Shown here one piece after another: positions 31,882 to 56,400 of a DNA stretch of 64,000 nucleotides. This stretch comes from Escherichia phage vB_EcoM_D4. Where the stretch lies: the sequence record PP886228. One strand, written 5' to 3'. The notes beneath the pieces were generated by a model. That model was not told the origin of the DNA and ran no database searches. It saw only the letters and a program-made list of their open reading frames with translations. The position numbers and the translations under genes are program-made. Within the stretch, counting starts at the first letter, position 1. Each line of letters opens with the position of its first letter.

Positions 31882-32922
31882 ATGGAGAAGTATACGCTAA
31901 CAAAACTTCCCGATTCAGTTACACATGTCTTTATCGACTCTGACAGTATTGCCTATAAAGGTGCTTGTGTAGTTGAGAAAGCAAAATATAAATATGTCAA
32001 TAAACTCACAGCAGAAGAATCTGAACCATTTGATAATGCAAAAGATGCAGCAAGATGGTTAGCAGACCAGAGAATCCTTGTAGAAGAGCTTGGCCTAGCA
32101 TTTGATGAAGATGAATGGGAAAGACAGACTTGGAAAGAAGCTAAGAGTGAAAAAGAAGCTATCATGGCTACTCAGCAGGTTCTTCAGGAATGGCTTAAGG
32201 TTGTTGGTAAAGAAAGAACTTGGGTAGGTTACTTAACAGAGAAGGGTGTACATAAACATAAAGACATTAAAGGTCTTGAGCACCAATATCAAGGTAACCG
32301 TAAAGAGGCTGTCACACCAACACACTTAGTTGCTTGTCGTGAATATCTTTTATCCAGACCAGAGTTCAAACTCTTAAAGGGTGGCTTCGAAGCCGACTCA
32401 ATCGTTATTGCTAAAGCTGAAAAGATGGGTAAGAAAGCTGCTCTTATGAGTATTGACAAAGACCTTCGACAAGCTGAAGGGACTTATTGTATTGATATGA
32501 CTTATGAAAAGTCACCACTAATTTTTATTGCTGATAATAATGTTGGTGATATCTGGGATTGCCCTATCAAATCAAAACCAAAAGCTGCAAAAACAGTTGG
32601 TGTAGGTTTTAAATTCTTGTGTTATCAGGCTGTTGCTGGAGATAATGCAGACAACTACTTCGGCCTTAAAGGTGCTGGCAAAGTAGCTGTGATGAATGCT
32701 TTAGATGGTAAAGAGACCTATAAAGAGTGTCTTGACGCTATCTATGAACTCTATGCTAAAAAAGACTCTTATACCTATGTGTCATGGGATGGACAGACTG
32801 TCACAAAGACACCATTAGAGTTAATGGAACAGCATTTCTGGATAGCATATCAAGAGAGAAATCCAAAAGATAATTTCTCTTTTAAGAAATATAATTGGGA
32901 GCCGTGTATGAATGAAGATTAA
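31882..32922 (+). CDS. 5'-3' exonuclease / flap endonuclease
   Basis: GFEADSIVIA (GxEADD-like) and SIDKDLRQ motifs characteristic of FEN/T5-exonuclease family. Confidence 0.6.
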   Translation: MEKYTLTKLPDSVTHVFIDSDSIAYKGACVVEKAKYKYVNKLTAEESEPFDNAKDAARWLADQRILVEELGLAFDEDEWERQTWKEAKSEKEAIMATQQVLQEWLKVVGKERTWVGYLTEKGVHKHKDIKGLEHQYQGNRKEAVTPTHLVACREYLLSRPEFKLLKGGFEADSIVIAKAEKMGKKAALMSIDKDLRQAEGTYCIDMTYEKSPLIFIADNNVGDIWDCPIKSKPKAAKTVGVGFKFLCYQAVAGDNADNYFGLKGAGKVAVMNALDGKETYKECLDAIYELYAKKDSYTYVSWDGQTVTKTPLELMEQHFWIAYQERNPKDNFSFKKYNWEPCMNED

Positions 32923-33409
32923 AGGATTTGGCAATTGTCCTACCTATGGTCATTGGGTATCTTTATGTGGGGAAGTTGACCCCACTAAACATTTTGGTTT
33001 TGTCTATTTAGTACACTGTAAGAAAACCGGACAATATTATATTGGAAAGAAACAGCTTAATAGCGTGACCAAAAGAAAAGTTGCTGGCAAGACTCGGAAG
33101 AAGGTAGTCACTAAGGAGAGTGATTGGATGACTTACGAGACTTCTTCTGAGTATATTAAAAAAGATATTGAGAGCTTTGGAAAAGAATTTTTTGACTTTT
33201 ACATTATCCAAACCTACTACACGAAAGGTGGCCTAGTTTATGGTGAAGCAAACCTCCAACATAAATTCGATGTAATGACAAAAAGGATTGACTCTAAGCT
33301 CAGACTCTTCTACAATGCCAATATTGCAGCAATTAAGTTTATCACTAAAGAAACTTATGAAGATGCTGAAAAAAGAATCCATAAGGTAATGAAAGCAAAT
33401 TGTGCTTGA
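32912..33409 (+). CDS. GIY-YIG-like endonuclease
   Basis: FVYLV...GQYYIGK near N-terminus resembles GIY-YIG motif. Confidence 0.35.
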   Translation: MKIKGFGNCPTYGHWVSLCGEVDPTKHFGFVYLVHCKKTGQYYIGKKQLNSVTKRKVAGKTRKKVVTKESDWMTYETSSEYIKKDIESFGKEFFDFYIIQTYYTKGGLVYGEANLQHKFDVMTKRIDSKLRLFYNANIAAIKFITKETYEDAEKRIHKVMKANCA

Positions 33410-39200: not shown

Positions 39201-41345
39201 ATGAACAAAGTACAGATTATTAAAAAGAATGGCTCACTTGAAGAACCTGATATCAAAAAAGTTTTAGCAGCAGTAACTAAGTCAGCTAACAGGGTTGGGT
39301 ATAAAGAACTTCCACCAGATGTTACCCAAGCTCTTGAGTCAGCATTTATGAGGATTCTGGTAAAGTCCACTAAGCAGAATAATTTGCTCATCTCGGTAAA
39401 TGACATTCACAGTATTGTTGAGGGTGCTTTGGCAGAAGTCAATCACGAGATTTATGAGTCTTACTCAACATACAGAAATTACCGTAAAGAGGTTGCTCAA
39501 AATTGGGATGAGCTTTACCAAAAGACTAAAGACACACTCTTCTTAGGTGACCGTGAAAATGCTAACTTTGACAGCAGTTTAATTTCTACAAAAGGTTCAA
39601 TTATTCGTGGCTATCTGACTAAAGAAATCTTTAAACAATACCATTTAACACCAGAGGAACTCGAAGCCATTGAAAAAGGGTTTATCTACATCCATGACTT
39701 AAGAGACCTAATTTTTGGTGGTATCAACTGTTGCCTGTTTGACATCGGTAAAGTACTGAAAGGTGGCTTTGAAATGTCTGGCATCGAATACTGTGAACCG
39801 AAGTCTGTACTGTCAGCCTTACAAGTTATCGGTGATGTAGTTCTTTCAGCAACTGCACAGCAATTTGGTGGATTTACTTTAGCAGAGATTGATAAGGTAC
39901 TTGTACCATATGCTAAGAAGTCTCTACGCTATCATGCTGAGAAAGCAGCATCTTACGGTATTCCTAAAGAACATTACCATAACTATGTCATGGAGCAGTT
40001 ACAGATTGAATTAACTCAAGGCTTCCAGTCACTAGAGATGAAGCTAAATACTGTACCTTGTAGCCGTGGTGATTTCGCATTCACAACTTTAACATTTGGT
40101 TTACTTGACTCAGACATGTCTAATGAAGACAACCGACTACAATACATGATTGCAAACACTATTCTTGATGTTCGCATGAATGGACAAGGTAAGAGCAAGA
40201 AGCCTGTTGTATTCCCTAAACTGGTTTATATTCATGACCAGAAGAGACACGATGAGAATATCTGTCAAGGTCAACTGTACAGTAAAGCTATTGAGTGTTG
40301 CTCTAAAGCTATGTATCCAGATTTCTTAAGTGTATCTGGTCATGGTGCTGTAGCAGAGGCTTTTGAGCGTTCTGGCAAGGTAATTTCACCGATGGGTTGC
40401 AGAGCTTTCTTATCCCCATATCTTAACGAGAATGGAGAAGAGTTCTACGTTGGTCGTGCTAACATTGGTGCTGTATCTTTGAACTTACCAATGCTTTACC
40501 AGTATTCTAAAGAGAACGGTTTAGATTTCTGGAAAGAGCTTGATAAGTACCTAGAGATGATTCGCAGCTTCCACAAGAAACGCTACGAAATGATTGCTAA
40601 TATGCCAGCAAGTTCTAACCCTCTTGCATTCACACAAGGTGGTCTGTACAAAGGGACTAAGAAACCTACTGACAAGGTTGGTTGGGATATCGTGAAGTCT
40701 TTCACAGCTTCTTTTGGGGTTACTGCTCTTGATGAGCTGTCTGTTCTTGCTGAAGGTAAACGACTTCATGAAGTTGGAAGCTATAGTTTTGCATATGATG
40801 TTCTGGCATACATCAACATGAAAACTGAAGAGTTTAAAAATGAAGATGGCTTCTTATATGCCGTCTATGGGACTCCAGCAGAATCACTTTGTGGAACTCA
40901 ACTAAAACAGTTCAGAGATATGTTTGGCGTTATCAAAGGTGTTTCTGACAAGGAATACTTTACAAACAGCTTCCACATGAATGTTGCAGCAGACATCTCA
41001 CCATTTGAGAAGCAGGACTTAGAAGAGCCATTCTTCCATATCTGTAGAGGCGGTAGAATCCAGTATGTTAGAGTAGCTAACCCAGAAAACTTACCAGCAC
41101 TTAAAAGTTGTATTACAAGAGGGATGTTGAAAGGTTTTTATCAGGGACTTAACTTTGACTTAGCAATCTGTGAACATTGTGGCAACAGGCCAAAGGCTGA
41201 TGTTGAAGAATGTGAGGTTTGCCATTCACATGACATCTCTGTGATTAACAGAGTGTGTGGGTATCTTGGGTGGACTAAGATTAAAGGCGAATCCCGAATG
41301 AATGATGCAAAAATTGCTGAGATTCGTGACAGGGTTTCTATGTAA
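39201..41345 (+). CDS. nrdD: anaerobic ribonucleoside-triphosphate reductase
   Basis: Glycyl-radical motif RVCGYLG at C-terminus preceded by zinc ribbon CEHCG...CEVCHS; N-terminal ATP-cone. Confidence 0.85.
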   Translation: MNKVQIIKKNGSLEEPDIKKVLAAVTKSANRVGYKELPPDVTQALESAFMRILVKSTKQNNLLISVNDIHSIVEGALAEVNHEIYESYSTYRNYRKEVAQNWDELYQKTKDTLFLGDRENANFDSSLISTKGSIIRGYLTKEIFKQYHLTPEELEAIEKGFIYIHDLRDLIFGGINCCLFDIGKVLKGGFEMSGIEYCEPKSVLSALQVIGDVVLSATAQQFGGFTLAEIDKVLVPYAKKSLRYHAEKAASYGIPKEHYHNYVMEQLQIELTQGFQSLEMKLNTVPCSRGDFAFTTLTFGLLDSDMSNEDNRLQYMIANTILDVRMNGQGKSKKPVVFPKLVYIHDQKRHDENICQGQLYSKAIECCSKAMYPDFLSVSGHGAVAEAFERSGKVISPMGCRAFLSPYLNENGEEFYVGRANIGAVSLNLPMLYQYSKENGLDFWKELDKYLEMIRSFHKKRYEMIANMPASSNPLAFTQGGLYKGTKKPTDKVGWDIVKSFTASFGVTALDELSVLAEGKRLHEVGSYSFAYDVLAYINMKTEEFKNEDGFLYAVYGTPAESLCGTQLKQFRDMFGVIKGVSDKEYFTNSFHMNVAADISPFEKQDLEEPFFHICRGGRIQYVRVANPENLPALKSCITRGMLKGFYQGLNFDLAICEHCGNRPKADVEECEVCHSHDISVINRVCGYLGWTKIKGESRMNDAKIAEIRDRVSM

Positions 41346-43447: not shown

Positions 43448-43502
43448 AAAGATACTATAAGGGGACTGTAAAGGTTCCCTTTTTATTTTTTGTGGAGATA
43501 CT

Positions 43503-44018
43503 ATGTACCTGTCAAACCTGAAACGTTCTGCTGCAATGTCTGTTCTGAGACTAAGCTTTGAAGAGCGTCAAGAGTTCATTGATTCCCACCAATATGACCC
43601 TTCCAATTCCAATCACATGATTCTCTGGAACCGTGATAACTTCCGTGAAAGAGCACTTGTCCGTTATTACCCACACTACACAATAGATAACCTGTATGAA
43701 TGGTGTGTTGTGAAGAACACTATTGCAACACTTAACAATCTTTGCAGGTATACAGGCAAGCAAACATTTACACTAGGTCACCACAAGCCTGTTACAAAAG
43801 GTGGTGAACATCACTGTGCAAACTGGTTTATTCAAACTAAAGCTGATAACCAGAGGCAAGGCGATAACCTTCTAAGTACTCCTAAGATGACCTATGAAGA
43901 GCAAGAGAAATATATCAAAAATAATATGCCAGATGTGCTTGACAACAACTATACAGATTTGGCAATATCTCTCCTGTTGAAGTTCGAGACAGTTTATAGG
44001 GCAACTTACAATGGCTAA
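43503..44018 (+). CDS. HNH endonuclease-like protein
   Basis: GHHKPVTKGGEHHCANW...N pattern resembles HNH core. Confidence 0.4.
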   Translation: MYLSNLKRSAAMSVLRLSFEERQEFIDSHQYDPSNSNHMILWNRDNFRERALVRYYPHYTIDNLYEWCVVKNTIATLNNLCRYTGKQTFTLGHHKPVTKGGEHHCANWFIQTKADNQRQGDNLLSTPKMTYEEQEKYIKNNMPDVLDNNYTDLAISLLLKFETVYRATYNG

Positions 44019-44289
44019 AGAGAAGTGGGAAATTTTACCATTAGTGAGTGAAGGCGGTAACGGTTGTGAGATGTACATGATACGTGGTCATGTCCCAGAA
44101 CCAATTGCACTTGAGATGGTAAACAACTTTACAGATGGCTCTTACAAAGACTTAGGAGAACCAACTGTCAAGCAACAATGGGTTAAACCTGTACCAGACA
44201 GCACAGGTAACTGTAGTGTACTTTATCACGTTGTAGACCCTGCAAAATGCAAATCTGCAATGGCAGTAACAAACGTAACTTTTGACTGA
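44011..44289 (+). CDS. hypothetical protein
   Basis: 92-aa ORF. Confidence 0.3.
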   Translation: MAKEKWEILPLVSEGGNGCEMYMIRGHVPEPIALEMVNNFTDGSYKDLGEPTVKQQWVKPVPDSTGNCSVLYHVVDPAKCKSAMAVTNVTFD

Positions 44290-45181
44290 GAGAGAAACTA
44301 TGAAAACATCTATCCGTGTTACAGTTCATTCACCGACTAAAGGGACTCATGAAGAAGAGTTTAACATCATTCAATTCCCTTCTGGTGAGATTGGTGGACA
44401 CTTTTCACAAGAGCTTGTTGATTTTACTGCTTATGCAGCATCATCTATCAACAATGTGATTATGATTGTGAAAGGTTATGATAAGGACACATTGTTTGCT
44501 GTGGCACTTGCTAAAGAAGCAATTGATGATTTAGTCCCTCATGACTATGCCTTAAAGACTGTCATTTTTTACTACTTACCAAATGCACGATATGACCGTC
44601 ACATGTTTAAAGGTGATGCAGCAGCTTTAAAGGTTTTTGCTAAACAGGTCAATGCAATGGGGTTTGGTGCAGTCTGTGCAGTTGACCCTCACAGTTATGT
44701 ACCAGATAACCTGTTTAACTGCTTCCAGAGTATTCCTCAAAAGGAAATTGCAGTCCACTATGCAAATGACCCACTGGTTGATTACTTAGTAGCCCCAGAT
44801 GCAGGTGCTGCTAAGAAGATTGCAGAGACTGCTAAAGAGGTGGATAAGCCATACATCACAATGTCTAAAGTGCGTAACCTTAAAACTGGTGAAATTACTG
44901 GTATGCGAATCCTTGATGATGTTGATTTGACAGATAAAACCGTCATGATTCTGGATGATATTTGTGATGGAGGACGAACCTTCATAGAAGCAGCTAAACA
45001 TCTTCGTGAAGCAGGTGCAAAACGTGTGGAACTCTATGTAACACATGGTATCTTCTCTAAAGGTGTTGAAAACTTACTTGACAATGGTATTGACCACATC
45101 TACACTACAAACTCTTTAGGGGAAGCTAAAGACCGTGGCTTAACACATTATGGTCAAGTTACTGTAGCAAATTTGGATTAG
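44282..45181 (+). CDS. ribose-phosphate pyrophosphokinase-like protein (PRPP synthetase family)
   Basis: PRPP-binding loop VMILDDICDGGRT and overall about 300 aa Prs-like layout. Confidence 0.65.
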   Translation: MTERETMKTSIRVTVHSPTKGTHEEEFNIIQFPSGEIGGHFSQELVDFTAYAASSINNVIMIVKGYDKDTLFAVALAKEAIDDLVPHDYALKTVIFYYLPNARYDRHMFKGDAAALKVFAKQVNAMGFGAVCAVDPHSYVPDNLFNCFQSIPQKEIAVHYANDPLVDYLVAPDAGAAKKIAETAKEVDKPYITMSKVRNLKTGEITGMRILDDVDLTDKTVMILDDICDGGRTFIEAAKHLREAGAKRVELYVTHGIFSKGVENLLDNGIDHIYTTNSLGEAKDRGLTHYGQVTVANLD

Positions 45182-45189
45182 GTATTAAA

Positions 45190-45681
45190 ATGGATAAGGG
45201 TTACTTCGAAAAATACCTAATATACGAACCGGAGACAGGTTTACTAATTTGGAAAGTAACCCTTTGCAATACCGCTATTGCTGGTAATGTTGCTGGCACA
45301 AGGTCTAAGAAGGGTTATATCCAAGTCCAGATAAATAAGAAGAGGTACTATGCACATAATATTGCATGGATTATGTCTGGAGGTGAGATACCAAGTGGAT
45401 ATGAGATAGACCACATAGACCTTGATAAATCTAATAATAAGTTGGAGAATTTAAGACTTAGCACAAAGTCACAAAATCAGAGGAATAGGGGTATATACAA
45501 GAATAATAAAACTGGTGTGAAGGGTGTAAGTTTTTGTAAACAAACAGGTCTTTACAAAGCAAGAGTCATGCTTTACCATAAAGAATACTTTTGTGGAAGA
45601 TTTAAAACGGTAGAAGAAGCAAAAGAAGCTGTAATTAAAAAGCGAATAGAACTTCATGGTGAGTTTGCAAGACATAACTAA
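45190..45681 (+). mobile_element. free-standing HNH homing endonuclease with AP2 domain
   Basis: IDHIDLDKSNNKLENLRL...QNQRN HNH_3 motif plus C-terminal TGVKGVSF...YKARV AP2-like segment; inserted between two metabolically linked genes. Confidence 0.6.
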
Positions 45682-45695
45682 GAGAGAGATAAAAT

Positions 45696-47477
45696 ATGAG
45701 TAAGTCACTTTACGCAGTACCAGCAGGTCTTAATGCAGATGCTTACAAGGCATCACATATATATCAGTATCCAGATGCTACGCAATATCTTATGTTGAAC
45801 CTGACACCACGTAGTGACAAATGGTTTAACAGCCCCTTAGCAATTGATGGTGTAGTTGCTTTTGGTATTCAACGTTTCGTTAAAGATTACTTGATAGACC
45901 ATTGGAATGCCACCTTCTTTGAACGTGATAAAAAAGAAGCAATTGACGAAATCTTAGAAGTCATGAACGGTGTTCTGGGTAAAGATGCTATTGGTCGAGA
46001 ACATTGGGAAGCACTCCACGATTTAGGTTATCTACCAGTTGAAGTATACGCTGTAGAAGAAGGCACAGTTGTTCCTATGCGTGTACCAATGATTGTCTTC
46101 CAGAACACTGTTTCAGGTTTCCATTGGGTAGCTGGGTATCTGGAAGATGCTTTCTCTGCTGAGATTTGGAAGGCTTGTACCATTGCAACTATTGCATTGC
46201 ACTATAAACGTATCTGTAAGAAGTGGTCTGACCTTACTTGTGATAACGACTTACATTTGCCTTATCAGTGCCATGACTTTGCTATGCGTGGTATGTCTGG
46301 CTTTACTGATGACGCATTTAACGCTGTAGGTCACTTAACCAGCTTTAAAGGAACTGACAGCTTCCCTGCTGTGTATACAGCTAAACGCATCTATGGACAG
46401 TCCTACCCAATCTCTGATATTGGTAGTTCTGTACCAGCCACTGAACACTCTGTAATGTGTGCAAACATTGCTTGGGAAGGTGGTAATGAGTTGATTGAAG
46501 AAGAAAGACGCTTTAAAGGTGAGTTACAAACCTTCCGTCGTTTCTTAACAGAAACTTACCCAACTGGCATTGCAAGTGTTGTTTCAGATACTTATAACTT
46601 CTGGAGAACTGTATCAGTTATATTACCAGAACTTCGTAAAGAGATTATGGAACGTGATGGCAAACTGGTAATTCGTCCTGACTCTGGAGACCCTGTACAT
46701 ATTGTCACAGGCTATAAAGCAATCCACTTAGAGTGTGCTAAAAAGGCTTATTACGAACACCTAAGCAAGCTGGAAGCCAGCGACACAATGTTGAATGCTG
46801 TTCTGAACATGAAGCTTGAAAACATCAATTATGGTATTGCTGGATGGCTATTGTCAGAAGGCTACGAAATGGTTGTTGACAGAGAAGACTTTGAAGTTGC
46901 TGATACAGTGCTGTTGAAAAATGCTTATATGGTTGGTTCTGCAAACGTTGTAACACGTCCTGTAGCGGAGATTGATGGAGCTATCAAGACACTGTATAAC
47001 ATCTTTGGAGGAACTATCAACTCTAAAGGTTTTAAAGTACTGGATGAGCATATCGGACTGATTTATGGCGACTCTATCACGTTGGAACGTGCAAACGAAA
47101 TACTGAAGCGTTTGTATGAAATGGGTTTTGCAAGCTCTAACGTAGTGTTTGGTGTAGGTTCTTATACTTACCAGTACATGACTCGTGATACCTTTGCATT
47201 TGCTGTCAAAGCAACTCTTGCAAGCATTGGTGGTAAAGAGATTATGCTTGCAAAAGACCCTAAAACAGATAGCGGTGTTAAGAAGTCTGCTTTTGGTGGT
47301 GTAGCACCTATGTGGGATGGTGATAATCTGAAAGCTGTAGATGGCTATGGATTCCAGAGCTTTGCAGATGTGCTAGAGCATCCAGCTTGTGCTTTACGTT
47401 TAGTCTTTAGCGACTCTGAGCAGTTCGGTTACACAACTCTTGGTGATATTCGAAATAATATTGACAAGCAGCTTTAA
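45696..47477 (+). CDS. nicotinamide phosphoribosyltransferase-like protein (NAMPT family)
   Basis: 593 aa, N-terminus ...DAYKASHIYQYP... typical of NAMPT/NadV family. Confidence 0.7.
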   Translation: MSKSLYAVPAGLNADAYKASHIYQYPDATQYLMLNLTPRSDKWFNSPLAIDGVVAFGIQRFVKDYLIDHWNATFFERDKKEAIDEILEVMNGVLGKDAIGREHWEALHDLGYLPVEVYAVEEGTVVPMRVPMIVFQNTVSGFHWVAGYLEDAFSAEIWKACTIATIALHYKRICKKWSDLTCDNDLHLPYQCHDFAMRGMSGFTDDAFNAVGHLTSFKGTDSFPAVYTAKRIYGQSYPISDIGSSVPATEHSVMCANIAWEGGNELIEEERRFKGELQTFRRFLTETYPTGIASVVSDTYNFWRTVSVILPELRKEIMERDGKLVIRPDSGDPVHIVTGYKAIHLECAKKAYYEHLSKLEASDTMLNAVLNMKLENINYGIAGWLLSEGYEMVVDREDFEVADTVLLKNAYMVGSANVVTRPVAEIDGAIKTLYNIFGGTINSKGFKVLDEHIGLIYGDSITLERANEILKRLYEMGFASSNVVFGVGSYTYQYMTRDTFAFAVKATLASIGGKEIMLAKDPKTDSGVKKSAFGGVAPMWDGDNLKAVDGYGFQSFADVLEHPACALRLVFSDSEQFGYTTLGDIRNNIDKQL

Positions 47478-47491
47478 AAGTATATGATAAG

Positions 47492-47514
47492 AGGCTCCTA
47501 CGGGAGCCTTTTTA
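47492..47514 (+). terminator. rho-independent terminator
   Basis: aggctcc tacg ggagcct then TTTTT. Confidence 0.6.
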
Positions 47515-47530
47515 ATTTCTGGAGAATGCT

Positions 47531-47875
47531 ATGGACAACCTTTCCATATGGTTTAACAAGAAACCTGTACAACCGAAATACTTACAAGTTGCCTATACAG
47601 ACATCCTTGAAGTTCTCGGTAAAGAAAAGTTTGAAAAGTTTTGTGAAGGTATCTACAATCACCACTGCCAATTTGCTACAAAAGAAGGTATGTTTGTCAT
47701 AGAACAGTTCTTTGGCAGAGACCCAGATGATTATGAAGAGATTAGTTTTGTAATGAAATACATGATAGAGTATATTGAAAATCGTGGATTCGAAGTTAAT
47801 CCTGAATTTTATGAGCATGAGGGTGTACCTTTAGCAAAAGGTTTTGATGGTATACTCGTTAACTGGACTTGGTGA
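47531..47875 (+). CDS. hypothetical protein
   Basis: 114-aa ORF. Confidence 0.35.
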   Translation: MDNLSIWFNKKPVQPKYLQVAYTDILEVLGKEKFEKFCEGIYNHHCQFATKEGMFVIEQFFGRDPDDYEEISFVMKYMIEYIENRGFEVNPEFYEHEGVPLAKGFDGILVNWTW

Positions 47876-55614: not shown

Positions 55615-56400
55615 ATGGGTATTGTAAAAATCATCAATGGGGATATCTTCTCCGCATTTGATAAAGGTAAGTTTGATATCATTGGTCACGGTTGCAACTG
55701 TATGAACTTAATGGGTGCAGGTATCGCTGCCAAGATTTCTAAACTTTACCCAAAAGCATATGAGACCGATACAGAAGTTTATCTGTATGCAGGTGGTATA
55801 GGCCACAAACCCTGTGAAAATTTACTAGGTAATTTCTCTGTAGCACGTTTAGAACAAGGCCGTATAGCTAACCTTTACACTCAGCTTAAGACTGGTAAAG
55901 ATGCCCGATACAGTGCTTTAGAGTCATCTTTGAAACAGCTTAACAGATACTGTGAAGTCAATCAGTTGAAGAAAGTTGGGTTACCTATGATTGGTGCAGG
56001 TATCGGTGGACTAGACCCTCAAGCCGTCGCAGTTATCATTAATCAGGTGATGAAGAGTGTAGATGTGTATCTGTATGTCTACGAAGGCGAGATGTACCAC
56101 AAGTTACGCTCAGGTTGGAAGAACTACTGTGAACCAGAATACTTTGCAGGTGTAGTAATGTTCACAGATGATACAGTTACCCTCTTCAGACGAAGAAAAG
56201 GTAAGATACATCAAAGTAACCCTCCGGTTGAGAAGATGTCTCTAAGTAACGCTCTAGTTACCCACCTGTCGAAGAGCAATCACAGAATTGCAGTAACATT
56301 TGGCAGTGATGCAGATACATATATCTATGCAAGAACTGATGAGGATGTTGAGGAAATTTTCTCTTCACCGGAAGTTACCTTCTTAGACGCAAAGAACTAA
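55615..56400 (+). CDS. macro-domain (ADP-ribose binding/hydrolysing) protein
   Basis: N-terminus IINGDIFSAF...DIIGHGCNCMNLMGAGIAAKI matches macro-domain NGDIT / G-rich loop layout. Confidence 0.5.
   Translation: MGIVKIINGDIFSAFDKGKFDIIGHGCNCMNLMGAGIAAKISKLYPKAYETDTEVYLYAGGIGHKPCENLLGNFSVARLEQGRIANLYTQLKTGKDARYSALESSLKQLNRYCEVNQLKKVGLPMIGAGIGGLDPQAVAVIINQVMKSVDVYLYVYEGEMYHKLRSGWKNYCEPEYFAGVVMFTDDTVTLFRRRKGKIHQSNPPVEKMSLSNALVTHLSKSNHRIAVTFGSDADTYIYARTDEDVEEIFSSPEVTFLDAKN

What the first reader, a model, noticed from the sequence alone, without database searches (positions are those of the whole stretch)
44282..47477. PRPP-synthetase-like and NAMPT-like genes as a pair, split by a homing endonuclease: candidate NAD+ reconstitution anti-defence pathway
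A Prs-family protein (44282-45181) and an NAMPT-family protein (45696-47477) sit together, separated only by a free-standing HNH-AP2 endonuclease (45190-45681). Phage-encoded Prs-like plus NAMPT-like pairs have been reported to rebuild NAD+ from ADP-ribose and nicotinamide (ADPR-PP synthetase plus nicotinamide ADPR transferase), countering NAD+-depleting defence systems. From sequence alone this cannot be distinguished from ordinary PRPP/NMN salvage, so it is a hypothesis. The endonuclease insertion suggests the pair is a target of mobile-element traffic.
Basis: partly seen in the sequence, partly recalled or inferred. Interest (0 to 1): 0.65.

Follow-up and report, generated by a model that had tools for sequence, protein, structure and literature searches.

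The report
Known phage NAD+-rebuilding operon (NARP1)
These genes are the FelixO1-like phage version of NARP1, an already characterised two-enzyme pathway that rebuilds NAD+ from ADP-ribose and nicotinamide to defeat NAD+-depleting bacterial immunity, here with a selfish homing-endonuclease gene inserted between the two enzymes.

Summary
Three same-strand genes lie at 44300-45181 (Prs-like), 45190-45681 (HNH endonuclease) and 45696-47477 (NAMPT-like). The only correction is the first gene's start: ATG 44300, not TTG 44282.

The window is a Felixounavirus, 100% identical to phage vB_EcoM_I14.1. NARP1 was discovered in a phage of this genus: Bas63 genes 79-80, whose deletion makes the phage sensitive to SIR2-HerA.
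- **Namat:** 97% identical to Bas63 gp80, with the adenine-clamp signature GSYTYQYMTRD and K42/W43.
- **Adps:** 79% identical to Bas63 gp79, with the catalytic Lys, the acceptor residues and the PP loop defined in the ICP1 Adps structures.

It is already known.

The HNH gene is a free-standing homing endonuclease, present in about 25% of related genomes and always at the same site. It replaces a conserved intergenic hairpin and comes with linked flanking substitutions.

Minor undiscussed features:
- two deeply diverged alleles of the Adps N-terminal domain;
- an Ounavirinae-only 85-aa subdomain inserted in Namat;
- a Poa1p-like Macro "phosphatase" 8 kb downstream that might act as a distal Adpp.

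Interest is low.

The parts
43459..43481 (+). Terminator-like hairpin followed by a T-run; upstream boundary of the transcription unit that contains the NARP1 genes.
   Evidence: The same element sits at the same relative place in Bas63. This is a consensus match only, not shown to function.
43503..44018 (+). Conserved 171-aa ORF of unknown function (orthologue of bas63_0077), inside the same terminator-bounded unit. It has a weak HNH-like motif.
   Evidence: phrog_3500 at 3e-93; weak phrog_2214 HNH at 2.7e-6. Annotated hypothetical. No evidence links it to NAD+ metabolism.
44011..44289 (+). Conserved 92-aa ORF of unknown function (orthologue of bas63_0078), immediately upstream of adps.
   Evidence: phrog_4726 at 3.7e-60; no Pfam hit.
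44300..45181 (+). adps: ADP-ribose pyrophosphokinase (ADPR + ATP -> ADPR-PP + AMP), 293 aa, Prs-like fold. Catalytic Lys190 is at nt 44867-44869 and the PP loop C222-F228 at nt 44963-44983.
   Evidence: 79% identical to Bas63 gp79. R97, H131, D167, K190, D219, D220 and C222-D223...T227-F228 align with ICP1 Adps R87, H121, D161, K185, D212, D213 and the PP loop. The Prs C-terminal alpha11-12 segment is absent. The ATG start is supported.
44270..44800 (+). Divergent cassette covering the Adps N-terminal domain: 60-79% nucleotide identity to Bas63, inside flanks that are 90-99% identical.
   Evidence: Sliding-window comparison. N-terminal residues 1-180 are 68% identical and C-terminal residues 181-293 are 96.5% identical. 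Two allele groups exist among Felixounaviruses, about 154 records against about 98, independent of HNH presence.
45190..45681 (+). Free-standing HNH homing endonuclease gene (163 aa; HNH_3 core with H75, N87 and N96; sub-threshold AP2-like C-terminal DNA-binding part), inserted in the adps-namat spacer.
   Evidence: Present in 60 records against about 238-258 that have the locus. Same insertion site and linked flank markers in window, FelixO1, radambza and Mijalis (Mooglevirus). No paralogue in the window.
45182..45695 (+). The whole insertion-bearing spacer (514 bp). It replaces the 45-bp spacer of HNH-less genomes and its GGGGCTTGAAAGCCCC-ATTTT hairpin. The GAGAGAGA tract upstream of namat is retained. 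The adps stop codon TAG plus the next G forms a likely Shine-Dalgarno sequence (TAGG) for the HNH gene.
   Evidence: Alignment and junction table. The hairpin folds at -11.5 kcal/mol in Bas63 and REP11 and is absent in the window.
45696..47477 (+). namat: nicotinamide ADP-ribose transferase (ADPR-PP + nicotinamide -> NAD+ + PPi), 593 aa, NAMPT fold. SCL K42/W43 is at nt 45819-45824 and the SCH motif G488-D498 (GSYTYQYMTRD) at nt 47157-47189.
   Evidence: 97% identical to Bas63 gp80. The best PDB sequence hit is SPbetaL1 Namat 9W5W at E=1e-128. The best fold hits are 9W5X and 9W5W with TM 0.95 on the target. All NAM, NMN and adenine-contact residues were mapped.
46719..46976 (+). Lineage-specific insertion of about 85 aa in Namat (residues about 342-427), predicted to form a compact alpha/beta subdomain. 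Function unknown.
   Evidence: Absent from SPbetaL1 Namat and human NAMPT. Found only in Ounavirinae among phage records, and only 42-52% identical between genera. pLDDT is about 94-97 in the full-length model. Other lineages carry unrelated inserts at the same spot.
47489..47512 (+). Terminator-like hairpin (10-bp stem plus T-run) 12 nt after the namat stop; downstream boundary of the unit.
   Evidence: identical element in Bas63. Consensus match only.

Best explanation
The locus is the Felixounavirus copy of NARP1 (NAD+ reconstitution pathway 1).

When an NAD+-depleting defence (SIR2-HerA/Nezha, type I Thoeris, DSR1/2, SEFIR and similar) cleaves NAD+ into ADP-ribose and nicotinamide, two enzymes rebuild it. 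Adps (44300-45181) transfers the beta,gamma-pyrophosphate of ATP onto the 1'' hydroxyl of ADP-ribose to give ADPR-PP. Namat (45696-47477) joins ADPR-PP to nicotinamide to regenerate NAD+. This cancels the metabolic effect of the defence.

The gene between them (45190-45681) is not part of the pathway. It is a free-standing HNH homing endonuclease that has settled in the intergenic spacer. It most probably spreads by cutting HNH-less relatives during co-infection and being copied in by repair.

What is shown: the orthology, the residue conservation and the population pattern were shown here, and the chemistry and the anti-defence phenotype were shown in the literature for Bas63, SPbetaL1 and ICP1. 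What is inferred: activity of this particular allele pair, and cleavage by this HNH.
For: The window is a Felixounavirus, 100% identical to PP892526.1 over 3.6 kb, with 258 related records.

NARP1 was discovered as Bas63 genes 79-80. Deleting them gave about 20-fold fewer plaques on SIR2-HerA cells and loss of NAD+ restoration. The phenotype did not depend on host pncC or nadR. ADPR-PP was detected only with the wild-type phage plus the defence system.

Bas63 genes 79 and 80 are collinear with the window genes. Namat is 575/593 identical and Adps 231/293 identical.

Namat carries the family signature GSX-phi-X-phi-X-phi-TRD as GSYTYQYMTRD, and the SCL Lys followed by an aromatic residue (K42/W43), exactly as in Bas63. 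It also has the catalytic core D15, Y17, F195, R198, D221, H251, R327, D329. Its top sequence and fold matches in the PDB are the SPbetaL1 Namat structures.

Adps keeps the catalytic Lys (K190, equivalent to ICP1 K185 and SPbetaL1 K162), the acceptor residues R97, H131, D167, D219 and D220, and a CD-G-x-x-T/S-F PP loop. It lacks the Prs alpha11-12 regulatory tail.

For the HNH gene: the HNH_3 domain is intact. It is present in 60 of about 238-258 loci. The insertion point and linked markers are identical across two genera: adps stop TAG against TGA/TAA, hairpin lost, namat codon 2 AGT against ACT.
Against: No experiment exists for this phage. The Adps N-terminal 180 residues are only 68% identical to the genetically tested Bas63 protein, and the biochemically tested enzymes (SPbetaL1, ICP1) are only about 30% identical.

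Two adenine-contacting residues of ICP1 Adps (F18, F92) are not conserved position for position in my alignment, which is unreliable in that region. This is equally true of Bas63 at F92.

Namat retains PRPP-dependent NMN synthesis in vitro, so some classical salvage activity cannot be excluded.

The HNH insertion removes a conserved hairpin and adds 0.5 kb between the genes, which might change their relative expression. Homing activity is inferred from distribution only.
Confidence: 0.93

Rival explanations
1. Classical nucleotide and NAD salvage. The Prs-like enzyme makes PRPP from ribose-5-phosphate, the NAMPT-like enzyme makes NMN from PRPP and nicotinamide, and host NadR or PncC finish NAD+. 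This is the database annotation before 2024.
For: Pfam, PHROG and GenBank labels say ribose-phosphate pyrophosphokinase and nicotinamide phosphoribosyltransferase. Namat can still make NMN from PRPP in vitro at about half the rate of human NAMPT.
Against: Bas63 still overcame SIR2-HerA in a pncC nadR double-deletion host. The SPbetaL1 homologue had no Prs activity but made ADPR-PP from ADPR. The window Namat has the full adenine-clamp signature, which is dispensable for NMN synthesis but needed for ADPR-PP use. The window Adps lacks the Prs regulatory C-terminus.
Confidence: 0.04
2. NARP2- or NARP3-type reconstitution. The NAMPT-like enzyme works with an NMN adenylyltransferase (the KVP40 type), or the phage relies on a PnuC/NadR pair.
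For: The second-best PDB sequence match is a canonical NadV (9ke8, E=3e-105). One ORF in the window is annotated 'NAD synthetase'.
Against: No NMNAT, Nudix, PnuC or NadR gene is annotated in the identical record across window positions 1-50000 or in the Bas63 record over its collinear region. The 'NAD synthetase' ORF is a SegE-like GIY-YIG protein (Pfam 9e-28). NARP2-type Nampt enzymes occur in phages that lack Adps, and Adps is adjacent here. NARP3 is a PnuC plus NadR pair.
Confidence: 0.01
3. The HNH protein is a functional third component of the pathway, as Adpp or RyDEP are when they sit between Adps and Namat, rather than a selfish element.
For: Known NARP1 operons do carry accessory enzymes inserted at this same junction. 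The HNH gene is on the same strand, tightly packed, and conserved at 90-100% identity.
Against: It is an HNH_3 nuclease with a DNA-binding-type C-terminus and has no Macro or RyR domain. About 75% of close relatives lack it, including Bas63, whose NARP1 is functional. Its distribution cuts across both Adps alleles, and it carries linked flanking substitutions of the kind expected for a homing element.
Confidence: 0.02

Closest known systems
NARP1 of Escherichia phage JohannRWettstein (Bas63), genes 79-80 (Osterman et al., bioRxiv 10.1101/2024.02.11.579819)
   Same: Same genus, collinear locus, and the same terminator-bounded unit with the same two upstream small ORFs. Namat is 97% identical, including both lineage-specific insertions and every clamp and catalytic residue. 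The Adps C-terminal domain is 96.5% identical.
   Different: The window has the 492-bp HNH gene in place of the 45-bp hairpin spacer. The Adps N-terminal domain is a different allele (68% aa and 60-79% nt identity).
SPbetaL1 NARP1 (biochemically characterised Adps and Namat; Namat structures 9W5W and 9W5X, PMC12774641)
   Same: Same two-enzyme chemistry is expected. The Namat fold matches at TM 0.95, with the same SCH motif and catalytic core. The Adps catalytic Lys aligns.
   Different: Only about 38% (Namat) and about 31% (Adps) identical. SPbetaL1 uses Arg40 in the SCL where the window uses K42/W43. SPbetaL1 Namat lacks the 85-aa and 15-aa insertions. The two genes abut or overlap there.
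Vibrio phage ICP1 Adps (apo, substrate-bound and product-bound structures, PMC13586617)
   Same: R87, H121, D161, K185, D212, D213, I214, C215, D216 and F221 all have identical counterparts in the window protein. The alpha11-12 tail is lost in both.
   Different: About 30% identity. PP-loop residues 218-220 are GRT rather than AAS. F18 and F92 are not conserved position for position in the alignment.
NARP1-AP (Adps-Adpp-Namat, Vibrio phage Gary; also seen here in Vibrio phage K408) and RyDEP-containing NARP1 (phage DyoEdafos)
   Same: A third gene occupies the Adps|Namat junction.
   Different: There the third gene is an ADPR-processing enzyme (Macro phosphatase or RyR-domain glycosidase). Here it is an HNH nuclease. 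The window's only Macro-domain gene lies 8 kb away.
Free-standing homing endonuclease genes of T-even phages (Seg and Mob families, 'intronless homing'); this comparison rests on my own knowledge, not on a tool result
   Same: An intergenic endonuclease gene between conserved metabolic genes, with presence/absence polymorphism among close relatives, one fixed site, and linked flanking substitutions.
   Different: Cleavage site, co-conversion and marker exclusion have not been demonstrated for this HNH.
Canonical Prs plus NadV/NAMPT salvage (for example H. ducreyi NadV 9ke8, human NAMPT, B. subtilis or human PRPS)
   Same: Same folds and the same catalytic chemistry at the ribose C1.
   Different: The acceptor and donor are extended by an AMP moiety. 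Namat has aromatic clamp residues where NAMPT has Gly/Leu/Lys. Adps lacks the allosteric and filament elements.

Membership tests
NARP1 (Adps + Namat) | An Adps homologue and a Namat homologue encoded close together on the same strand. | tested here: met
   44300-45181 and 45696-47477, both on the + strand, 514 bp apart, inside one terminator-bounded unit.
NARP1 (Adps + Namat) | Orthology to a genetically validated NARP1 operon. | tested here: met
   Collinear with Bas63 genes 79-80; 79% and 97% amino-acid identity.
Namat | SCH consensus GSX-phi1-X-phi2-X-phi3-TRD with aromatic X at motif positions 3 and 7. | tested here: met
   G488-S-Y-T-Y-Q-Y-M-T-R-D498. Y490 and Y494 correspond to SPbetaL1 F392 and Y396. 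Phi3 is Met rather than the commoner Asn or Val, as in Bas63.
Namat | SCL (beta1-beta2 loop) that supplies a stacking residue: the third residue is Arg, Lys or Tyr, and with Lys or Tyr the next residue stacks. | tested here: met
   K42 aligns with SPbetaL1 R40 and is followed by W43. The loop is identical to Bas63.
Namat | NAMPT-like catalytic core, including the phosphorylatable His and the Arg equivalent to SPbetaL1 R306. | tested here: met
   D15, Y17, F195, R198, D221, H251, R327, D329, G458-D459. The fold matches 9W5X at TM 0.95.
Namat | Preference for ADPR-PP over PRPP, producing NAD+ directly. | not testable with these tools
   Shown for the SPbetaL1 enzyme only.
Adps | Catalytic beta-hairpin Lys (ICP1 K185, SPbetaL1 K162). 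| tested here: met
   K190 in 'MSKVRNLKTGEI' aligns with both.
Adps | Conserved acceptor groove (R87, H121, D161, D212, D213) and the remodelled PP loop with a following Phe lid. | tested here: met
   R97, H131, D167, D219, D220, and C222-D223-G-G-R-T227-F228 against ICP1 C-D-G-A-A-S-F.
Adps | Adenine contacts F18 (from the neighbouring protomer) and F92. | tested here: inconclusive
   The alignment gives T16 and M102 in the window, with F103 adjacent. Bas63 has F16 and M102. The N-terminal alignment at about 30% identity is unreliable.
Adps | Loss of the Prs C-terminal alpha11-alpha12 filament and allosteric module. | tested here: met
   The window protein ends about 18 residues before the B. 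subtilis Prs C-terminus, like the ICP1, SPbetaL1 and Bas63 proteins.
Adps | ADPR + ATP -> ADPR-PP, with no PRPP synthesis. | not testable with these tools
   Shown for the SPbetaL1 and ICP1 enzymes.
NARP1-AP | A Macro-domain ADPR-1''-phosphate phosphatase (Adpp) within two genes of the operon. | tested here: not met
   No Macro hit for the two genes on either side or for the intervening gene. A Poa1p-like Macro protein exists, but 8.1 kb downstream.
NARP2 | A Nampt clade found without Adps, plus an NMN adenylyltransferase. | tested here: not met
   Adps is adjacent. No NMNAT is annotated in the identical record or in Bas63.
Free-standing homing endonuclease | Intact nuclease motif. | tested here: met
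   HNH_3 at 1.6e-19 with full-length profile match 1-46 of 46. H75, N87 and N96 are conserved in all four homologues compared.
Free-standing homing endonuclease | Presence/absence polymorphism at one precise site among otherwise collinear genomes, with linked flanking changes. | tested here: met
   60 of about 238-258 records. Identical boundaries in 4 HNH-carrying genomes from two genera, against 5 HNH-less genomes. Linked markers: TAG against TGA/TAA stop, hairpin absent against present, AGT against ACT.
Free-standing homing endonuclease | Cleavage of the endonuclease-less allele and super-Mendelian inheritance. | not testable with these tools
   No experiment is available.

The most novel reading that the evidence does not exclude
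Felixounaviruses may run a 'split' NARP1-AP. The conserved 261-aa Poa1p-like Macro-domain protein at window 55615-56400 (Bas63 gp95) lies 8 kb from the operon, so the published two-gene-proximity screen would have missed it. It could dephosphorylate ADPR-1''-phosphate and let this NARP1 also overcome aRES-type defences.

Two subsidiary readings are not excluded. The deep dimorphism of the Adps N-terminal domain and the fast-evolving Ounavirinae-only subdomain inserted in Namat may mark a further, undescribed layer of host-phage conflict directed at the NARP1 enzymes themselves.
Probability: 0.2. Interest if true: 0.5.

Novelty: already known. Interest (0 to 1): 0.15.

Why it matters
NARP1 lets a phage cancel a whole class of NAD+-depleting defences, whatever sensor triggers them. 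It therefore matters for predicting host range and for choosing therapeutic phages. FelixO1-like phages are widely used against Salmonella and E. coli.

For this window the practical value is correct annotation. The genes are still labelled 'ribose-phosphate pyrophosphokinase' and 'nicotinamide phosphoribosyltransferase' in the identical GenBank record, and should read Adps and Namat. No new biology follows from the finding itself.

The side observations give small testable questions about how a selfish element and allelic variation affect an anti-defence operon.

Tried and rejected
- **NARP2 and NARP3.** Rejected. No NMNAT, Nudix, PnuC or NadR gene is annotated. The ORF annotated 'NAD synthetase' (32912-33409) is a SegE-like GIY-YIG protein.
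- **In-operon accessory enzymes (Adpp Macro, RyDEP RyR).** None found among the intervening gene or the two neighbours on each side.
- **HNH as a pathway component.** Rejected on domain content and population distribution.
- **Solved Adps structure.** The PDB copy held only canonical Prs enzymes (best hit 4twb, 8e-18). Residue mapping therefore used the ICP1 sequence fetched from GenBank plus the paper's residue list.
- **Namat insertion modelled alone.** Without an alignment the model reached only pLDDT 69, with the C-terminal half below 50, so I ran no fold search on it. Because model coordinates are not returned, I could not place the insertion relative to the active site or the dimer interface.
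- **Accession guesses for Bas63.** MZ501111, MZ501084 and MZ501085 were wrong before MZ501086. One search failed on a range error.
- **Spacer hairpin as a terminator.** The consensus scan did not call it (only 4 T in the tail), so its role is open.
- **HNH paralogues.** tblastn found none in the window.

Full report
**1. Observation**

- ORF1 matches Pfam Pribosyltran and Pribosyl_synth, and phrog_619 at 2e-97.
- ORF2 matches Pfam HNH_3 (1.6e-19), a sub-threshold AP2 (20.8 bits against a cutoff of 33.3), and phrog_99 at 3.5e-69.
- ORF3 matches Pfam NAPRTase plus NAMPT_N, and phrog_448 at 8e-201.

The TTG at 44282 is only the mechanical longest-ORF start. The sequence reads ...TGA GAGAGAAACT ATG, with the ATG at 44300. 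The same GAGAGAGA tract precedes namat. GenBank annotates the 293-aa form both in the identical record and in Bas63.

**2. What genome this is**

Megablast of 44000-47600 gives 100% identity to Escherichia phage vB_EcoM_I14.1 and 258 matching records. Almost all are FelixO1-like phages of Escherichia, Salmonella, Shigella and Citrobacter. The window is collinear with Bas63 (JohannRWettstein, MZ501086) at 84-95% nucleotide identity, differing by a few small indels.

**3. The system is already characterised, in this lineage**

The paper that defined NARP1 started from a two-gene operon in four BASEL phages and did its genetics in Bas63, genes 79-80.
- Deleting them cut plating about 20-fold on SIR2-HerA cells and abolished NAD+ recovery.
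- The effect did not need host pncC or nadR.
- ADPR-PP (m/z 720.01) appeared only with wild-type phage plus the defence.

The Bas63 protein purified poorly, so the enzymology was done with SPbetaL1 homologues. Adps used ADPR plus ATP and not the Prs substrate. Namat made NAD+ from ADPR-PP plus nicotinamide.

Bas63 gene 79 (293 aa) and gene 80 (593 aa) lie at the position equivalent to the window genes. BLASTP gives 231/293 (79%) for Adps and 575/593 (97%) for Namat, with no gaps.

**4. Residue-level tests: Namat**

Structures 9W5W and 9W5X (PMC12774641) define two elements:
- a NAMPT-like core;
- an adenine 'selectivity clamp', made of the SCH motif GSX-phi-X-phi-X-phi-TRD with aromatic X, and an SCL loop whose third residue is Arg, Lys or Tyr.

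Aligned with SPbetaL1, the window protein has D15, Y17, F195, R198, D221, H251, R327, D329 and G458-D459 in the core. Its SCH is G488-S-Y-T-Y-Q-Y-M-T-R-D498, and its SCL is K42 followed by W43. All of these are identical to Bas63.

Its best PDB sequence hit is SPbetaL1 Namat (E=1e-128), ahead of H. ducreyi NadV and mammalian NAMPT. An AlphaFold2 model (pLDDT 93, pTM 0.91) matches 9W5X and 9W5W best, with TM 0.95 on the target.

**5. Residue-level tests: Adps**

The ICP1 Adps structures (PMC13586617) identify the following:
- the acceptor groove R87, H121, D161, D212, D213;
- the catalytic K185;
- a remodelled PP loop C215-S220 with an F221 lid;
- loss of the Prs alpha11-12 tail.

I fetched ICP1, SPbetaL1 and Bas63 sequences and aligned them. 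The window has R97, H131, D167, K190, D219, D220, I221 and C222-D223-G-G-R-T227-F228, and no alpha11-12.

Two adenine contacts, F18 and F92, are not conserved position for position. The alignment is weak there, and Bas63 shares the window's M102/F103 arrangement. I score that feature inconclusive.

**6. Alternatives excluded**
- **NARP2** needs an NMNAT, and its Nampt clade occurs in phages without Adps.
- **NARP3** is a PnuC plus NadR pair. Neither is annotated in the identical record or in Bas63.
- An ORF labelled **'NAD synthetase'** (32912-33409) is a SegE-like GIY-YIG protein.
- The known in-operon accessories, Macro-domain **Adpp** and RyR-domain **RyDEP**, are not among the intervening gene or the neighbours.

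**7. The HNH gene**

Megablast with the HNH gene alone finds 60 records, all full length at 90-100% identity. An artificial 'empty-site' junction query finds 238 records. It spans 1,314 bp where the gene is present and 845 bp where it is absent.

I aligned four HNH-carrying loci (window, FelixO1, radambza, and Mijalis from the genus Mooglevirus) with five HNH-less loci (Bas63, REP11, Alf5, humlepung, KhF3). This shows one fixed insertion point.

| Feature | HNH-less genomes | HNH-carrying genomes |
|---|---|---|
| Spacer | 45 bp, RAxTTTATAGGGGCTTGAAAGCCCCATTTTGAGAGAGAYTAAAAG | left 30 nt of that spacer, including the hairpin, replaced by GTATTAAA (GTAACAAG in Mijalis) plus the 492-bp gene |
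| Hairpin | 6-bp G+C stem, -11.5 kcal/mol; stem invariant, loop variable | absent |
| adps stop codon | TGA or TAA | TAG (TAGG then forms a plausible ribosome-binding site for the HNH gene) |
| namat codon 2 | ACT | AGT |

HNH presence is independent of the Adps allele type, and the window holds no paralogue.

This is the pattern expected of a free-standing homing endonuclease. Cleavage and homing themselves are inferred. Bas63, whose NARP1 works, has no such gene, so the HNH is not needed for the pathway.

**8. Operon context**

Terminator-like hairpins at 43459-43481 and 47489-47512 bracket a unit with two conserved small ORFs (43503-44018 and 44011-44289), adps, HNH and namat. The same elements bracket genes 77-80 in Bas63. 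These are consensus matches only.

**9. Features not discussed in the literature I read**

(a) **Adps mosaicism.** Nucleotide identity to Bas63 is 90-99% across the region. It falls to 60-79% from the adps start to about 44800. Amino-acid identity is 68% for residues 1-180 and 96.5% for residues 181-293. Among Felixounaviruses, about 154 records carry the window-type allele and about 98 the Bas63/FelixO1 type. In the ICP1 structure the N-terminal domains form the hexamer core and contribute adenine contacts. The dimorphism could therefore affect assembly or substrate binding, or be neutral.

(b) **Namat insertions.** There is a 15-aa insertion (residues about 258-272) and an 85-aa insertion (residues about 342-427) relative to SPbetaL1 Namat and NAMPT.
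- The large one is found only in Ounavirinae among phage records, and is only 42-52% identical between genera.
- In metagenomic proteins the long form extends down to about 45% overall identity.
- It is predicted as a compact alpha/beta subdomain at pLDDT about 95.
- It sits at a hotspot where other lineages carry unrelated inserts.
- Bas63 has it too, so it is compatible with function.

(c) **A distal Macro protein.** A 261-aa protein at 55615-56400 (Bas63 gp95, annotated 'putative phosphatase') has a Macro domain (Pfam 4e-8; phrog_335 at 4.5e-113).
- It carries the Poa1p-type motif and a C-terminal extension of about 100 aa.
- It is 27% identical (E=1e-11) to the operon-embedded Adpp of Vibrio phage K408.
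- It is 35% identical (E=4e-24) to T4 Tk.4.
- The aRES study screened only two genes on each side of NARP1, and tested NARP1 by co-expression with phage T7. A distal Adpp role in Felixounaviruses is therefore untested.
- The family is very widespread (2,852 records) and occurs in phages without NARP1, so I give this low probability.

**10. Verdict**

The system is an orthologue of the founding NARP1 operon, so it is already known. The HNH gene is an ordinary, already annotated homing endonuclease. Interest is low. The side observations are modest leads only.

Noticed in passing
window 55615-56400 (+): A 261-aa Poa1p-like Macro-domain 'phosphatase' (orthologue of Bas63 gp95) with a C-terminal extension of about 100 aa, 8.1 kb downstream of namat. 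It is in the same family as the NARP1-AP enzyme Adpp (27% identical to K408 Adpp) and as T4 Tk.4 (35%). It could act as a distal Adpp, which the published +/-2-gene screen would have missed.
   Followed up: partly
window 44270-44800 (Adps residues 1-180): A sharply bounded divergent cassette (60-79% nt identity to Bas63 inside 90-99% flanks). Two deep alleles of the Adps N-terminal domain circulate in Felixounaviruses (about 154 against about 98 records), independent of HNH presence.
   Followed up: partly
window 46719-46976 (Namat residues about 342-427), also 46467-46511 (residues about 258-272): Ounavirinae-specific insertions in Namat. The large one is confidently predicted as a compact alpha/beta subdomain and evolves much faster than the enzyme core. 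Other Namat lineages carry unrelated inserts at the same position.
   Followed up: partly
L006:15629-15673 (Bas63) and the equivalent spacer in REP11, Alf5, humlepung and KhF3; absent at window 45182-45695: A conserved GGGGCTTGAAAGCCCC hairpin followed by ATTTT between adps and namat in all HNH-less genomes. The stem is invariant and the loop variable. It may be an attenuator, an RNA-stability element or the endonuclease target. The HNH insertion deletes it.
   Followed up: partly
window 32912-33409 (+): An ORF annotated 'NAD synthetase' (a label inherited from phrog_447) is a SegE-like GIY-YIG endonuclease-domain protein (Pfam PF19835, 9e-28). The label is misleading for anyone looking for NAD pathways.
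   Followed up: yes
window 39201-41345 compared with L006:8631-11517: Bas63 NrdD is interrupted by a 742-bp intron carrying its own homing endonuclease (bas63_0068). The window's NrdD is uninterrupted. The two phages thus carry different sets of selfish endonucleases.
   Followed up: partly
PHROG profile phrog_12872 (matches window Adps residues 50-232 and Namat residues 243-587): A 547-position PHROG profile matches part of Adps with its N-terminal half and part of Namat with its C-terminal half. This suggests that fused or chimeric Adps-Namat proteins, or mis-clustered ones, exist in some phages.
   Followed up: no
proteins P0065-P0104: Chromosomal 'nicotinate phosphoribosyltransferases' of about 496 aa from Klebsiella, Cronobacter, Kosakonia and other Enterobacteriaceae carry the Namat-type GS[FY]TYQYNTRD motif. 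This agrees with the reported existence of bacterial NARP1 modules.
   Followed up: no
window 43503-44018 (+): A conserved 171-aa ORF in the same terminator-bounded unit as NARP1 has a weak HNH-like signature (phrog_2214 at 2.7e-6; sequence ...GHHKPVTKGGEHHCANW...). Function unknown.
   Followed up: no
GenBank PP892526.1 (identical to the window): The record's taxonomy line places the phage in Demerecviridae/Tequintavirus, although the sequence is plainly a Felixounavirus (Ounavirinae).
   Followed up: no
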